From assembly GCF_030384885.1 (NCBI RefSeq), contig NZ_CP128613.1: a DNA stretch of 64,000 nucleotides, one strand, 5' to 3'. Below, piece by piece: positions 49,301-64,000 of the stretch; the first letter of the stretch is position 1; every line of letters starts with the position of its first letter. Source of the stretch: Escherichia coli (GTDB lineage: Bacteria; Pseudomonadota; Gammaproteobacteria; Enterobacterales; Enterobacteriaceae). Made by a program: the position numbers.

Positions 49301-52300
49301 GACGCTTTTGCCGCGCTGACACCGCTGTTCTCATGCATGGCTGATGGCTATTATCTGCTCGAAGATCGTGAAATTTACCCGACGGATGGCAACGGGCATT
49401 TCTTTTGGGCGGCAACGGACCATAGCGCCAGTAATCCGGCGACCGTTGCCGTCTGGGATCCTGAATATTGCTATTTCAGTGACACCGCCCCCTGTTTTCT
49501 TCTACCCGGCCAGCCGCCATCACATTTTAATCCTGAGCGTGCGACGTTTTATCGCGATAAACCGGACGCCCGCGCTCTGGCCTGGTATCTCCCTGATTCC
49601 TATCTCTGCGTTCTGCTCGACGGGCACCATAAGGCCACTGCTGCCGCACTGGAAGGGCGACCGCTCAAAACACTGGTACTCAGCACGGCAACCCGTTTTA
49701 ATGATGAGCAACAAACACTGGTATTTCCGGGCGGAGAATGTCTGCACAAAACAGAGCTACTGTGCCACGTTCCCAAACTCACTGAGTGGAAAACATTACC
49801 GCCCGGCGCATGGGAGAGTTTCGGCCCTGATAAGCACATCAGCCCATCCGAAACCTGGTCTGAAGAGTTGCAGCAGAGCGTCAGTCGGTACCCTTCACTG
49901 GATCAAGCCTGGCAAATTGTTGAGGCCGGGAATTTGAGCGAAACTCGTATTAAGAGCATGATCCAACAAGGTTTGGGGGAGGATGAAAAGGCTGATGTAA
50001 TTTTGCAGGCACTGTTTTCCACACACTCGCCGCTTTTTATTGACTTTGCCCGATTCGTTATCAGCTATCCGGCATACGCCAGTTATCGCCCCCTCACCTT
50101 CCGGTTGATGGCGCAAAACCGAACGCCGCAAGCAGATGCTTTTTTTCTGGATTTTGCCATCAATGATGACGGCGAACGTCCGGAGTTGACGAAAATAATG
50201 GACGACTATTTTCGCAAGCGTTAATCACCCCGCCCGATGATGACAGCAGCCGGAGAGATTTTCGATAATCGGGCAGTCGGCGCTGTCATCACCGGGGCAG
50301 GCATTCGCCAGCGCCAGTAACTGGTTGCGCATGGATTGCAGCTCCTCAATGTGTCGTTCGATCTCCGCCACCTTCTCCAACGTGCGCCGTTTGACGTCGG
50401 CGCTATGCCGCTGCGGGTCGTTAAACAGATTCACCAGTTCGCCGCTCTCTTCCAGGTTAAAGCCCACCTGACGCGCCTGGCGCAGTAAGGTCAGTTCGTT
50501 GAGATGCTGCTGCGTGTAGGTTCGATAACCGTTTTCGCTGCGCATCGGCGGCGTCACCAGCCCCTTTTCTTCATAGAAGCGAATGGCTTTGCTGGTCAGG
50601 CCGGTAATTTTTGCTACATCGCTAATGTTCATCGTTCGCGCAACGCCTCCTGTGCTTTGTTAAAGGGTTTCAACAGATAATCCAGCACGCTTTTTTTGCC
50701 GGTGCGGATATCGACCGTCGCCACCATGCCGGGAAATATCGGAAACTGCTGTTTATGTTTATTTTCCAGATGGTTGCTGAAAGTGCGAATGTACACCCGA
50801 TAGTAATAAACATCGCGCCGCACTTCATCCTGCACGGTGTCCGGTGAAATCACCGCCACTTCCCCTGGCAGGCCGCCGTAGATGGAATAATCGTAAGCGG
50901 TTATTTTCACCAGCGATTTTTGCCCCGGATGGATAAACGCCACATCGCGGGGGGAGATTTTTGCCTCGATCAGCAGTTGCTCATCCAGCGGCACGATGGT
51001 CATCAGTTTACCACCGGGGGCGATGACGCCGCCAACCGTGGTGACGTCAATGTCCTGAACAATGCCTCGCACCGGCGCAGTAAAGTTGAGCCGCGTGAGA
51101 GAATCTTCCCGCCCGCGGATCACCGAACGCTGGGTTTCCACTTCCGCATTGGCTTTCGCTAACTCTTCGCGCGCCTGAACGTAGTATTGCGTGCGCACGT
51201 CGCTAAGTTTGTTTTCCAGTTCATTGGCCTGACGTTGCAGGCGCAGCACTTCGACGCTGCTCGCCGCCCCCTGTTTTACCAGCGGCTGGGTCATCGCCAG
51301 TTCGCGGTTGACCAGGCTAATCCCCTGCGTCAGCCCGGTGGTGGCTTTGTTCAGCCCATCGCGGCGAGTGTTATATAACGCCGTTTCCGACTCGATAAGT
51401 TCGGGGAATTTATTCAGTTCGTCAGGGAAGACCAGCGGTTTATTGCTCACTTCCGCCCGCAGCCGCGCCGAGGTTGCCAGCGCCGCGTACAGCCGCGACA
51501 TCGCTTCCTGGACGTCGGATTCCGTTTTGGTGCGGTTAAGCTGTGCCAGCGGCTGCCCCTGTTCGACAATATCGCCAACCTTCACGTCGAGATGATACAA
51601 AATCCCGCCTTCCAGAGACTGCACCACCTGTTCGCGTCCAGAAGGTTCTACCGTGCCGCTGCCGGTGGTGACTTCATCAAGCTGGAAGTACCACGCCCAG
51701 CCGAGAAAACAGAGCAGCATCACAGCGGTAACGCGCACCGCCAGCGCCGAACGTGGCAGGCGGGGTTCAGTCAGGCCACGGTTGTATTGCAGTTGTCCGT
51801 TCATGCGGCAGACCCCTTATTCTTCTCCTGCAACACCACGCGTCGCGTCGTGGGTTCGCCCTGTTCACGCAAAATGGTCTCTTTCGCGCCGTCCATCACA
51901 ATGCGCCCCTGATCCATCACAATTATCCTGTCCACCAGTTGCAGCATTGCCGTGCGGTGAGTAGCGATGACCAGCGTGCGATGGCCAATCCACTGTTTTA
52001 GTTGTTCAATTAAATACGCTTCCGCCATTTCATCCAGCGAGGCACTGGGTTCATCGAGCAGCACGATATTGGGTTGAGAGATGAGGAGCCGCGCCAGCAG
52101 CAGCGTTTGTCGCTGACCACCAGAGAGGCCAAATCCCCCTTCCTGAATCATGTAGTTGAGGCCGTTTTTCTGCTTCTGCACAAAGGGCAGCGCCCCGCTG
52201 AGGGTTAATGCGCGTTCGATATCTTCATCGCTGGCTTCTGGCATCCCCATGGTGAGGTTTTCCCGCAGCGAACCGAAGAACAGTCGCCCGGTCTGGCTGA

Positions 52301-61300: not shown

Positions 61301-64000
61301 TCGTGTTGATCACGTCATCGCCCGCGATGGTGTTGATGCTAATCGCTGGCGCGGTGAGGTTAACGGTGACGGTTCGGCTGGCGTCGTCGCTGTTGCCCGC
61401 CCGATCGCTGACGCTGGCGGTGATGGTCTGTGCGCCGCTACTGAGTGCCGTAACATCCGCCGCCGGTACGCCGACGCTCCAGTTGCCGGAGGCATCCAGC
61501 GTCGTGGTGTAGGTTTTGCCATTGAGCACAACGCTCACCACATCGCCCGCTTCCCCGCCCGTACTGGTACCGGAGATCACCAACGCCTGGGCGTGTTCGG
61601 CGTCGTTAAGGATGTCATCGCCCGCCACGGTGTTAATGGTGAGAACCGGCGCGGTGGTGTCTATCGCCAGATTATGGCTGGCGCTGCCGGGGTTGCCCGC
61701 TTTGTCGTTGACCGTGGCGCTGATGGTGTAATTGCTTGCAGTCAGAGCGCCCAGGGCTGAAGTGGGAACGCTGACGCTCCAGCTACCGTCCGCCTGTACA
61801 TTGCCGGTGTAGGTTGCGCCGTTAAGAGTGACGGTGACCGTCTGCCCGGTTTCGGCGGTGCTGGTGCCGCTGATGGTGAGCGGGTTTCCCGCCTCCGTGG
61901 CGTTAAGAATATCGTCGCTGGCGATGATGTTAATGGTGAGCGTCGGTGCGCTGGCGTCAATGCTGTACGCATGAGTTGCCGACGCGCTGTTGCCGCTCGC
62001 ACTGCTGACACTGGCCTGCACGGTCGCCGCGCCGTCTGGCAGGCTTGCCAAATCCGCCGCCGGAACGTTTACGCTCCAGCTTCCGTTGGCGGCGACGCTG
62101 GCGGTGTAGGTTTTGCCGCCAAAAGTGACGGTAACGGTTTGCCCACTTTCAATTCCGCTGGTGCTGCCAGAAAGGGTCAGATTAGTGCCTTTTTCGGCGG
62201 CGTTAATCACGTCGTCGCTGGCAACGGTGTTGATGCTGATTGCCACCGCCGTTAAATCGACGGTGAACGGATGGCTGACGCTGACCGGGTTTCCGGCGCT
62301 GCTCTGGCCTGTCACTTCAACGGTTAACGGCCCCGCAGGCCATGCGCTGACGTTTGCCGCCGGAATGCCGACGCTCCAGCTCCCGTCTGCCTGTACCGTG
62401 GCAGAATAAGCCACACTGTTGATGGTAACCGTCAGCACAGCACCTGCATTCAGGCCACTACTGCCACCAGTGATCACCAGTGCCTGACCATGCTCGATGC
62501 TGTTGACGATATCATCGCCCGCCACGGTATCCACGCGCAGCCCCGGCAGGTTGGCATCAATGGTGATATCCCGCGTGCCGCTACCGGTGTTGCCATTCGC
62601 GTTGGTGACCGAGGCGGTAATGATCAAATCACCATTTCCCAACGCCTGGAGATCGGCTGCCGGAACGGTGACGTTCCAGCTTAAGTTGCCCTGTACCGTA
62701 GCGGTGTAAGTGTTGCCGCCCAGCGTCACGGTGACTGTATCGCCTGCGGCGGCGCGGGTCACCACCCCGCTGATGGTTTGATCGCCCCCGGCTTCGGCGG
62801 CGTTGATAATATCGTCGCCTGCCACGGGGTTGATGGTGACGCCCGGCAGGCCGCTATCGACCAGTAAATTCGCCTGGCTGCTGGCGGTGTTGCCCGCCGC
62901 ACTGGTGGCACTGGCGCTGACGGTATAGTTGGCCTGGCCTAATGCCGCCAGATCGCTGACAGGCACGGTTAAGGTCCAGTTGCCTGCTGCGTCGGTGGTG
63001 GCGCTGTAATTGTGACCGTTGAGCGTGACGGTAACCTGTGCGCCTGTCGCCAGCCCCGTACTGCTACCGCTAATGGTCAACGGCTGGCCTTTTTCATCGG
63101 CGTTCAGGACGTTATCGCTGCTGATGGCGTTAAAGGTAATGGTCGGCAGCCCGGTATTGACCGTCACCTGATGGGTGGCGCTGCCGCTGTTTCCGGCGGC
63201 GTCAGTGACGCTGGCGTTAATGGTCACCGTGCCGTTTGCCAGTGCCGAGACAACGCTTGCCGGGACACCGACGCTCCAGTTGCCGCTGGCATCCAGCACC
63301 GTGGTGAAGATGCTGCTGCCGATAGTCACCGTGACGGTACTACCGGTTGCCGCGCCAGTGGCGGAACCGCTAATGATCTGCGCCTGGGCGTGTTCCGTCG
63401 CGTTGATCACATCATCGCCTGCCACCGTGTTGATGGTGACGACCGGAACGGAAGTATCCACCGTCAGGTTGTGATTAGCTGAAGACGGGTTTCCGGCTTT
63501 GTCGCTCACCGCCGCGCTGACGGTGTAGTTGCTGGCGGTCAGGGCGCTTAAGTCGGCTGGCGGTACGCTGATACTCCAGCTGCCGTCCGTTTGTACCGTG
63601 CCAGTATAGTTTGCGCCATTGAGCGTGACGGTCACCGTCTGCCCGGCTTCCGCCGTGCTGCTGCCGGTGATGGTCAGCGCCGCACCCGCTTCGGCGGCGT
63701 TAAGAATATCGTCGCCCGCAATGGTGTTAATGGTCACCGTTGGCGCGGTGGCATCGACGCTGTAAGCGTGGGTAGTGGTGGCACTGTTGCCGTTAACGTT
63801 GCTGACGCTGGCCTGCGCGCTGGCATCACCATCACGCAGGGCTGCCATATCCGCCGCCGGAACCGTGGTGCTCCAGGAACCATTCGCCGCGACGCTTGCC
63901 GTGTAGGTTTTGCCGCCAAAGGTCACGGTGACCGTTTGTCCGGCTTCGACGCCGGAAGTGCTGCCGGAGAGCGTTAACGCCGCGCCTTTCTCAGCGGCGT

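What the first reader, a model, noticed from the sequence alone, without database searches (positions are those of the whole stretch)
50225..64000. Type I secretion module with a giant Ig-repeat adhesin replaces ybaT upstream of cueR
Seen in sequence: giant adhesin (>3,340 codons in window), then ABC transporter with N-terminal C39-like domain, then HlyD-family adaptor, all co-oriented with overlapping stop/start codons. Established knowledge: this is the organisation of LapA/SiiE/BapA-type adhesin secretion systems, and the C39-like domain is typical of transporters for large RTX adhesins. In K-12 the gene upstream of cueR is ybaT, so this is an accessory island. A similar RTX-exoprotein island is, as I recall, annotated in E. 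coli O157:H7, but the adhesin is functionally uncharacterised. No outer-membrane TolC-like component is in the window, so the system presumably uses chromosomal tolC or a gene upstream of the adhesin.
Basis: partly seen in the sequence, partly recalled or inferred. Interest (0 to 1): 0.62.

Follow-up and report, generated by a model that had tools for sequence, protein, structure and literature searches.

The report
Known E. coli OI-28 adhesin secretion island
This is a strain variant of the already described E. coli "O-island 28" system, which exports a giant calcium-stabilised surface adhesin through its own type I secretion channel, so it is real but ordinary.

Summary
On the minus strand the window carries the last 3,343 codons of a giant Ig-repeat adhesin (53967-64000), an LssB/LapB-type ABC exporter with a dead C39-like domain (51801-53963), a HlyD adaptor (50629-51804) and cueR (50225-50632).

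The window is E. coli 2013C-4282. RefSeq already names the adhesin "BapA-related adhesin SiiEA". The locus is O-island 28 of O157:H7 (Sakai ECs_0540-0544). A December 2025 paper showed that OI-28 is an RstA- and Ca2+-activated type I secretion and adhesin system needed for early adherence.

- ybaT is not replaced. The island (TolC-like gene, adhesin, ABC, adaptor) lies between ybaT and cueR.
- K-12 keeps a 98-bp relic of the adaptor gene, so K-12 is a deletion derivative.
- The outer-membrane component is a dedicated gene upstream of the adhesin, outside the window.
- A LapG-type cleavage site is not supported.

Additional findings:
- The repaired adhesin would be 7,222 aa, but a 1-bp deletion in a G5 run outside the window frameshifts it.
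- It has about 55 Ig-like repeats in six-unit super-repeats.
- Its distal tip resembles CRTAC1 and integrin propellers.
- The O157 "two RTX proteins" are two halves of one gene.

Verdict: already known, low interest.

The parts
53967..64000 (-). 3' 46% of siiEA (rtxA28/rtxB28 equivalent). It covers residues ~3879-7222 of a conceptual 7,222-aa adhesin. The frame is open to the window edge and ends at a TAG stop at 53967-53969.
   Evidence: RefSeq names it 'BapA-related adhesin SiiEA'.
58371..64000 (-). Shaft: about 19 tandem ~100-aa Ca2+-stabilised Ig-like repeats (Ca_tandemer / Ig_like_ice / Big_13). They belong to a run of ~55 repeats organised in six-unit super-repeats.
   Evidence: NF033510 scores 925 and 807 bits. 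Identity between units is 0.62-0.66 at lags 6, 12 and 18, against 0.43-0.46 at other lags. TRF finds no DNA-level tandem repeat.
56133..58370 (-). About seven Big_13-type Ig-like domains. Five are ~106-aa units carrying the motif DTGxSxxDF(I/V)T; two more are divergent.
   Evidence: Pfam Big_13 E-values from 2.9e-13 to 2.5e-6. Motif positions.
54723..56087 (-). Distal tip: an FG-GAP beta-propeller with five DxDxDG-type loops, followed by a beta-sandwich. The fold resembles CRTAC1 and the integrin alpha head. This is the candidate ligand-binding module.
   Evidence: Pfam FG-GAP_3 x3. AF2 model with pLDDT 85.8 and pTM 0.90. Foldseek best hit is CRTAC1 9etn_A, E 8e-14, TMt 0.60. Loop positions.
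53970..54671 (-). RTX beta-roll (from GTGYNDTF) followed by the non-cleaved type I secretion C-terminal target domain, ending ...ATLLANHQLMVV.
   Evidence: HemolysinCabind E 2e-4. TIGR03661 scores 32.9 bits against a cut-off of 17.6. The C-terminus is conserved in alignment A2.
51801..53963 (-). ABC exporter (hlyB28 / lapB equivalent), 720 aa. The N-terminal C39-like domain is roughly 53559-53963.
   Evidence: TIGR03375 scores 835 bits. HlyB structure 7sgr aligns over residues 10-700, E 1.7e-80. HlyB Y9 aligns to Ala10 and H83 to Ile84, and there is no Cys in residues 1-155.
50629..51804 (-). HlyD-family periplasmic adaptor (hlyD28 equivalent), 391 aa. Its start overlaps the ABC stop (ATGA) and its stop overlaps the cueR start (ATGA).
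   Evidence: TIGR01843 scores 328 bits. Junction sequences.
50225..50632 (-). cueR, the Cu(I)-responsive regulator. It is a core gene and not a secretion component, but it is physically coupled to the adaptor gene.
   Evidence: NF007590 scores 308 bits. ATGA overlap shown.

Best explanation
The region is the distal part of the chromosomal tolC-like / siiEA / ABC / adaptor operon, which is O-island 28 of EHEC, here in E. coli strain 2013C-4282.

Proposed mechanism:
1. The ABC exporter, which has a catalytically dead C39-like domain, together with the HlyD adaptor and a dedicated TolC-family channel (encoded just outside the window), exports the giant adhesin C-terminus first. Export is directed by its non-cleaved C-terminal signal.
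2. Extracellular Ca2+ then folds the RTX roll and the roughly 60 Ig-like domains into a long rigid fibre.
3. The far end of the fibre carries a CRTAC1/integrin-like beta-propeller, which probably binds the host ligand.
4. The N-terminal BapA-prefix domain and the conserved hydrophobic glycine-rich segment probably stay behind in or under the outer-membrane channel and hold the fibre on the cell.
5. Transcription is probably driven from upstream of the TolC-like gene by RstA.

Shown here: gene identities, family memberships, synteny, repeat architecture, the fold of the tip and the conserved RstA box.
Shown by others in O157: the role in adherence and colonisation, RstA binding and Ca2+ dependence.
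Inferred: the retention mode, the ligand-binding role of the propeller, and activity in this particular strain.
For: Identity and synteny:
- The window is 100% identical to NZ_CP027579.1, and the RefSeq annotation reads T1SS permease/ATPase, HlyD adaptor, siiEA and cueR.
- The synteny ybaT - TolC-like - adhesin - ABC - adaptor - cueR is the same as Sakai ECs_0539-0545.

Family scores:
- TIGR03375 835 bits, TIGR01843 328 bits and TIGR03661 32.9 bits.
- TIGR01844 410 bits, NF047714 adhesin_SiiEA 475.5 bits (cut-off 425) and NF033677 BapA prefix 69.6 bits.
- Ca_tandemer 807-925 bits.

C39-like domain: it lacks both the Cys and the His equivalents.

Tip: AF2 pLDDT 85.8, best PDB match CRTAC1 at E 8e-14, followed by integrin alpha heads and RTX rolls.

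Distribution of the modules:
- The 721-aa C-terminal cassette recurs at the C-termini of 642 representative giant proteins at E<=1e-30.
- The adhesin-ABC-adaptor unit recurs in Citrobacter, in a Serratia-like genome and in a record labelled Salmonella Choleraesuis (possibly mislabelled), each with different flanking genes.

Regulation: the RstA box is present at 13/14 matches, at -281..-294 from the TolC-like start codon, the position reported in PMC12758282.

Functional data for OI-28 come from PMC12758282.
Against: - In this assembly the adhesin gene carries a 1-bp deletion in a G5 run at about codon 210, outside the window (RefSeq note 'frameshifted'). If the deletion is real, the N-terminal anchor would be separated from the 6,985-codon remainder.
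- The anchoring mechanism is inferred. The N-terminal model was poor (pLDDT 52.8) and had no significant structural match.
- No experiment exists for this allele, which is only 91-95% identical in nucleotides to the O157 and cS51a alleles.
- The 2025 paper attributes adhesion to the Ig-like repeats, not to the propeller.
Confidence: 0.9

Rival explanations
1. It is a LapA-type adhesin. The N-terminal retention module would be cut at a di-alanine site by a LapG protease under LapD/c-di-GMP control, releasing the fibre.
For: - The ABC protein is of the LssB/LapB type.
- The only TAAG in the 7,222-aa protein lies at residues 97-100. About 0.15 such motifs are expected by composition in the first 230 residues.
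- The published consensus is [T/A/P]AAG (PMC13090378).
Against: - The motif is not conserved in homologues at 52-57% identity from Enterobacter, Pluralibacter, Apirhabdus and BFo2, and it is changed (DAASGG) in an allele at 89% identity.
- There is no 'DP' motif before it.
- The N-terminus matches BapA-prefix and SiiEA models only.
- No LapG/LapD-like genes lie between ybaT and cueR, nor within 10 kb downstream of three related systems.
Confidence: 0.08
2. In this strain the system is an inactivated relic. The frameshift is real and no anchored adhesin is made.
For: - RefSeq flags the gene as 'frameshifted', and the lesion is a 1-bp deletion, GGGGG to GGGG, relative to two other alleles.
- Disrupted alleles are common: O157 and O145:H28 alleles carry an internal stop.
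Against: - It is a single lesion in a homopolymer in what may be a long-read assembly (I recall, but did not check, that this CDC STEC assembly is PacBio), which would be a typical sequencing error.
- The remaining 6,985 codons and all transport genes are intact.
- EHEC alleles with an internal stop still give an adherence phenotype (PMC12758282).
Confidence: 0.3
3. It is a secreted RTX toxin or exoprotein rather than an adhesin, as the old 'RTX family exoprotein' annotation and the term 'RTX toxins' imply.
For: RTX nonapeptide repeats are present and export is by type I secretion.
Against: - The ABC protein is below the cut-off for the HlyB family (388.7 against 725.55).
- There is no acyltransferase gene in the locus.
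- More than 80% of the protein is Ig-like repeats, there are only 2-3 RTX motifs, and there is one Cys.
- The O157 mutant phenotype is in adherence, not cytotoxicity.
Confidence: 0.02

Closest known systems
O-island 28 T1SS/RTX adhesion system of EHEC O157:H7 (tolC28, rtxA28/rtxB28, hlyB28, hlyD28; Sakai ECs_0540-0544), Niu et al. 2025, PMC12758282
   Same: - Same chromosomal site (ybaT...cueR), same gene order and same families.
- RstA box at the same position (13/14 matches).
- CueR is the identical protein (WP_001026752.1).

   Different: - ABC, adaptor and cueR are 94.7% identical in nucleotides; the whole island is 91-92.5% identical.
- The adhesin here is 21.67 kb, against 20.16 kb in O157-like strain 319 and 18.98 kb in cS51a.
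- It is disrupted by a G-run frameshift at about codon 210, instead of the internal stop at codon 1462 that creates 'two RTX proteins' in O157.
- There is an extra 407-aa gene downstream of cueR; O145:H28 strain 12E115 also carries it.
Salmonella BapA with its BapBCD type I secretion system
   Same: - BapA prefix-like N-terminal domain (NF033677).
- Tandem Ig-like repeats.
- Dedicated ABC, adaptor and outer-membrane genes.
- RefSeq calls this protein 'BapA-related'.
   Different: - From established knowledge, BapA is about half the size and its operon order is adhesin-ABC-adaptor-OMP, whereas here the OMP gene comes first.
- A direct sequence comparison with BapA was not run.
Salmonella SiiE (SPI-4, siiABCDEF)
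   Same: A giant Ca2+-stabilised Ig-repeat adhesin exported by a type I system; this is the source of the gene name siiEA.
   Different: - No SiiA/SiiB-like genes in the locus.
- The N-terminus is BapA-type.
- The name comes from annotation by analogy ('adhesin for cattle intestine colonization'), not from a test.
Pseudomonas fluorescens LapA / LapBCE with LapG/LapD; Legionella LssB; Vibrio cholerae FrhA (VCA0849)
   Same: - ABC subfamily TIGR03375.
- C-terminal target-domain subclass TIGR03661.
- General design: N-terminal anchor, repeat shaft and ligand-binding modules near the C-terminus.
   Different: - No conserved di-alanine site.
- No LapG/LapD genes nearby.
- The N-terminus matches the BapA prefix rather than a LapA-type retention model.
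CRTAC1 / ASPIC and integrin alpha head domains (fold only)
   Same: A Ca2+-loop FG-GAP beta-propeller followed by a beta-sandwich (Foldseek E 8e-14 to 9etn_A).
   Different: Only 15% sequence identity. Here the fold is a module at the tip of a bacterial fibre, followed by an RTX roll.

Membership tests
E. coli SiiEA / OI-28 system | The adhesin N-terminus matches NCBIfam NF047714 (adhesin_SiiEA) above its cut-off. | tested here: met
   475.5 bits against a cut-off of 425 over residues 1-214. The N-terminus lies outside the window, in locus L002.
E. coli SiiEA / OI-28 system | Gene order ybaT - TolC-like - adhesin - ABC - adaptor - cueR. | tested here: met
   for this strain and for O157 Sakai.
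E. coli SiiEA / OI-28 system | RstA box about 280-294 bp upstream of the TolC-like gene. | tested here: met
   TAATTCAAATTTCC, 13/14 matches, at L002 23718-23731. The published box is described.
E. coli SiiEA / OI-28 system | Required for early epithelial adherence and colonisation. | not testable with these tools
   Shown only for O157 and O145 strains in PMC12758282.
Type I secretion system, LssB/LapB-type | ABC protein above the TIGR03375 cut-off, with a C39-like domain that lacks the catalytic Cys and His. | tested here: met
   835 bits against 693. Ala10 and Ile84 occupy the positions of HlyB Y9 and H83, and there is no Cys in residues 1-155.
Type I secretion system, LssB/LapB-type | HlyD-family adaptor and TolC-family channel. 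| tested here: met
   TIGR01843 scores 328 bits. TIGR01844 scores 410 bits for the upstream gene, which is outside the window.
Type I secretion system, LssB/LapB-type | The substrate has RTX repeats and a C-terminal secretion target domain. | tested here: met
   TIGR03661 scores 32.9 bits against 17.6. HemolysinCabind E 2e-4.
LapA-like, LapG/LapD-regulated adhesins | A conserved [T/A/P]AAG cleavage site after an N-terminal retention module. | tested here: not met
   TAAG is present at residues 97-100 in E. coli alleles but is not conserved in homologues. Only BapA-prefix and SiiEA models match the N-terminus.
LapA-like, LapG/LapD-regulated adhesins | LapG protease and LapD receptor genes. | tested here: inconclusive
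   They are absent from the locus and from the 10 kb downstream of three related systems. The whole genome was not searched.
SiiE / SPI-4 | Accessory SiiA/SiiB genes next to the secretion genes. | tested here: not met
   No additional genes lie between ybaT and cueR.
BapA family | BapA prefix-like N-terminal domain. | tested here: met
   NF033677 scores 69.6 bits against a cut-off of 35. Precomputed Pfam PF22783 is present in homologues.
RTX pore-forming toxins (HlyA type) | HlyB-type exporter and an acyltransferase gene. | tested here: not met
   TIGR01846 scores 388.7 bits, below the 725.55 cut-off. No acyltransferase gene is in the locus.

The most novel reading that the evidence does not exclude
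In island-bearing E. coli, cueR may be the last, translationally coupled gene of the adhesin secretion operon. Its start overlaps the adaptor stop as ATGA, and no convincing promoter was found between them. CueR dosage would then follow RstA/Ca2+ control. The cueR upstream region in K-12 is a 98-bp relic of the adaptor gene, so the familiar K-12 arrangement arose by deletion of the island.
Probability: 0.2. Interest if true: 0.4.

Novelty: already known. Interest (0 to 1): 0.15.

Why it matters
There is little new here.
- The locus has a curated NCBI family and gene name.
- It is present in about 18% of complete E. coli genomes.
- It received a functional study in 2025.

The useful by-products are corrections and refinements:
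- The island does not replace ybaT.
- The K-12 arrangement is a deletion that left a relic of the adaptor gene.
- The 'two RTX proteins' of O157 are two halves of one adhesin gene split by a stop codon. This raises the question of how a fragment without the N-terminal anchor can mediate adherence.
- The distal tip is a CRTAC1/integrin-like propeller that nobody has tested as the ligand-binding part.

Tried and rejected
- Tandem Repeats Finder on 53900-64000 found nothing. The repeats are only 65-72% identical at the DNA level, so the repeat structure had to be shown at the protein level.
- LapG cleavage site: the single TAAG looked promising but failed the conservation test.
- N-terminal anchor fold: AF2 on a 7-sequence alignment gave pLDDT 52.8, and Foldseek against the PDB gave no hit below E 0.19. 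This is uninformative.
- Promoter and terminator scan of 50000-54300: no minus-strand sigma-70-like site, and only weak hairpins inside genes.
- Rfam on 46000-64000: no match.
- The 407-aa neighbour: no NCBIfam, PADLOC or Pfam match.
- Repeat search around cueR: no insertion-sequence ends or target duplications.
- Two Lap-system papers (PMC5869472 and PMC8966053) were not in the library.
- The hit labelled Salmonella (P0133) lies next to metK/speA beside an 8,772-aa protein, not at the known bapABCD site, so it was not used as BapB.

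
Full report
**1. What is in the sequence.**

Between 50225 and 64000 every long ORF of note lies on the minus strand.
- cueR is at 50225-50632 (NF007590, 308 bits).
- A 391-aa HlyD-family adaptor is at 50629-51804 (TIGR01843, 328 bits).
- A 720-aa ABC exporter is at 51801-53963 (TIGR03375 'LssB' subfamily, 835 bits against a cut-off of 693).
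- One frame runs open from the window edge to a TAG at 53967-53969. That frame holds 3,343 sense codons in the window.

The adaptor/cueR and ABC/adaptor junctions are ATGA overlaps. The adhesin stop and the ABC start are 3 nt apart.

G+C rises from about 0.45-0.53 in the flanks to 0.57 in the transport genes and 0.60-0.62 in the adhesin.

No Rfam family and no convincing promoter or terminator lies inside the block.

**2. Where the window comes from.**

A megablast of 50225-54400 against 5,426 complete E. coli genomes gave one 100% match, strain 2013C-4282 (NZ_CP027579.1).
- 958 genomes carry at least 80% of the query.
- All other matching genomes match only cueR plus the next ~95 nt.

RefSeq annotates the genes as 'type I secretion system permease/ATPase', 'HlyD family type I secretion periplasmic adaptor subunit' and 'siiEA: BapA-related adhesin SiiEA'.

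**3. What lies beyond the window edge.**

In the record the adhesin gene spans 21,668 bp and is flagged 'frameshifted'. Directly upstream is a TolC-family gene (TIGR01844, 410 bits), followed by ybaT, glsA and copA. Two conclusions follow.
- ybaT is not replaced. The island is inserted between ybaT and cueR.
- The outer-membrane component is dedicated to the system.

O157:H7 Sakai has the same order: ybaT ECs_0539, OMP ECs_0540, ECs_0541 (1,461 aa), ECs_0542 (5,291 aa), 'lapB' ECs_0543, adaptor ECs_0544 and cueR ECs_0545. This is O-island 28.

**4. The K-12 arrangement is a deletion.**

In K-12 DH1, a 98-bp pseudogene lies upstream of cueR. It corresponds to the 3' end of the adaptor gene, with the ATGA overlap retained. 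About 30 bp further on lies ybaT.

The listed genomes that lack the island all end their match at query positions 500-503. This points to one ancestral deletion, not to an insertion into a K-12-like site.

Core flanks are about 97% identical to K-12, O157-like strain 319 and cS51a. The island is only 91-92.5% identical to the two other alleles examined.

**5. Anatomy of the adhesin.**

*The frameshift.* It is a 1-bp deletion in a G5 run at about codon 210. After repair, the protein is 7,222 aa, and the window holds residues ~3879-7222.

*N-terminus (outside the window).*
- It matches NF047714 adhesin_SiiEA (475.5 bits against 425) and the BapA prefix-like domain (69.6 bits against 35).
- This domain is followed by a hydrophobic glycine-rich segment, PWGWxAGAAxGGGAxGALLAxGG. 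The segment is conserved in homologues at 52-57% identity from Enterobacter, Pluralibacter, Apirhabdus and an insect symbiont.

*Shaft.*
- It consists of about 55 repeats of ~100 aa of the Ca_tandemer / Ig_like_ice type (807-925 bits per kilobase-sized piece).
- Unit-to-unit identity is 0.62-0.66 at lags 6, 12 and 18, and 0.43-0.46 at other lags. The units therefore form six-unit (~1.8 kb) super-repeats.
- Gene length varies between strains by whole numbers of units: 21.67, 20.78, 20.16 and 18.98 kb.

*C-terminal part (in the window).*
- About seven Big_13-type domains.
- An FG-GAP propeller with five DxDxDG loops.
- A beta-sandwich.
- An RTX roll.
- A TIGR03661 secretion target domain.

*Fold of the tip.*
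- An AF2 model of the last 721 residues, built on 24 sequences, reached pLDDT 85.8 and pTM 0.90.
- Its best PDB match is CRTAC1 (9etn_A, E 8e-14, TMt 0.60). Next come integrin alpha heads, lectin propellers and RTX rolls.
- The same 721-aa cassette ends hundreds of other giant proteins: 642 representatives at E<=1e-30.

**6. The exporter.**
- The protein scores below the cut-offs of the HlyB (388.7 against 725.55), PrtD and bacteriocin families.
- HlyB (7sgr) aligns over residues 10-700.
- In the N-terminal domain, HlyB Y9, which stands in for the catalytic Cys, aligns with Ala10, and H83 aligns with Ile84. There is no Cys in the first 155 residues. The background on such domains is in PMC8277102.
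- Relatives occur in E. albertii (90%), Citrobacter (84%) and Enterobacter (82%). Serratia-like genomes carry relatives at 75% identity that JGI names LapB.
- Three neighbourhoods were inspected. Each has a giant protein of 6,022-11,320 aa followed by the ABC gene and a 391-aa adaptor, with unrelated flanks and no LapG/LapD genes in the 10 kb downstream; in the Citrobacter locus the giant protein carries recorded BapA_N, Big_13 and FG-GAP_3 hits.

**7. What is already known about function.**

Niu et al. (Gut Microbes, December 2025, PMC12758282) studied OI-28 in EDL933.
- Deleting the island, or any of its five annotated genes, lowers Caco-2 adherence at 3 h, pedestal formation and mouse colonisation.
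- RstA binds a box at -294 to -280 upstream of tolC28.
- Ca2+ raises expression through RstA.
- O145:H28 behaves the same way.

In the present strain the box is present with 13 of 14 matches, at -281 to -294 from the start codon of the TolC-like gene. The statement 'functionally uncharacterised' is therefore out of date.

**8. A point the paper does not address.**

In strain 319 and PNUSAE147328 (whose adaptor and ABC proteins are identical to each other; serotype not given in the records) and in O145:H28 strain 12E115, RefSeq treats the adhesin as one gene with an internal stop. The stop is at codon 1462, which matches exactly the ECs_0541/ECs_0542 split of O157:H7 Sakai. Strain cS51a has an intact 6,324-aa gene. 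The 'two RTX proteins' are thus two halves of one adhesin.

**9. The LapG question.**

TAAG occurs once in the whole protein, at residues 97-100. About 0.15 such motifs are expected by composition in the first 230 residues. It fits the published [T/A/P]AAG consensus.

It is not conserved in the homologues at 52-57% identity, and it is altered in an allele at 89% identity. No Lap-type retention model matched, and no LapG or LapD gene is nearby. I therefore reject this reading for now. A genome-wide search for LapG was not possible with these tools.

**10. Verdict.**

It is wrong about ybaT and about the lack of characterisation. This is a strain allele of a known, named and recently characterised system, so interest is low.

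Noticed in passing
window 49001-50224 (+): A 407-aa ORF whose stop codon abuts the cueR stop. It has no NCBIfam, PADLOC or Pfam match. It is present (>=80% coverage) in 270 of 5,426 genomes, including O145:H28 strain 12E115, and absent from strain 319 and cS51a.
   Followed up: partly
window 46398-48912: A second accessory segment lies on the other side of cueR. It holds a 120-aa hypothetical (46500-46862, -), a 338-aa YadA-family protein (47229-48245), a 140-aa lipoprotein (48299-48721) and a small ORF. In K-12 the ybbJ stop abuts the cueR stop directly. All four island-bearing loci inspected also carry this segment. The 1.3-kb query that starts at its last ~27 bases matched 965 genomes, against 958 with the island.
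   Followed up: partly
window 47175, 49983, 62551: The window differs from the RefSeq record NZ_CP027579.1 at three bases out of the 33,776 compared: T/C, A/G and T/A. The change at 62551 gives Asn in the window and Ile in the record, within the motif ITIDA(N/I)LPGLRVDT. Asn is the residue found in the sister repeats.
   Followed up: partly
L003 3905-4002 (K-12 DH1), homologous to window 50629-50727: K-12 keeps a 98-bp relic of the adaptor gene's 3' end upstream of cueR, with the ATGA overlap intact. The listed island-free genomes all share the same breakpoint.
   Followed up: yes
L002 ~21344-21347 (record ~2,196,344), outside the window: The 'frameshift' in siiEA is a single G missing from a G5 run at about codon 210. 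The other 6,985 codons are open. It may be a homopolymer sequencing error.
   Followed up: partly
L004 23743-43902; L012 16355-36823: In strain 319 (L004) and O157:H7 Sakai (L012), and likewise in PNUSAE147328 and O145:H28 12E115, the adhesin gene is interrupted by a stop. The stop is at codon 1462 in strain 319, matching the 1,461-aa ECs_0541. The published 'RtxA28' and 'RtxB28' are therefore two halves of one gene. The N-terminal half lacks a secretion signal and the C-terminal half lacks the anchor.
   Followed up: partly
window 58371-64000 and L002 up to ~21000: The ~100-aa Ig-like repeats are arranged in six-unit super-repeats of about 1.8 kb. Between strains, gene length differs by whole numbers of units.
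   Followed up: yes
window 50225-50632: The cueR allele here is only 94-96% identical in nucleotides to cueR in genomes that lack the island. Its protein (WP_001026752.1) is the one found in the other four island-bearing genomes inspected, whereas K-12 has WP_001026747.1. cueR therefore seems to travel with the island.
   Followed up: partly
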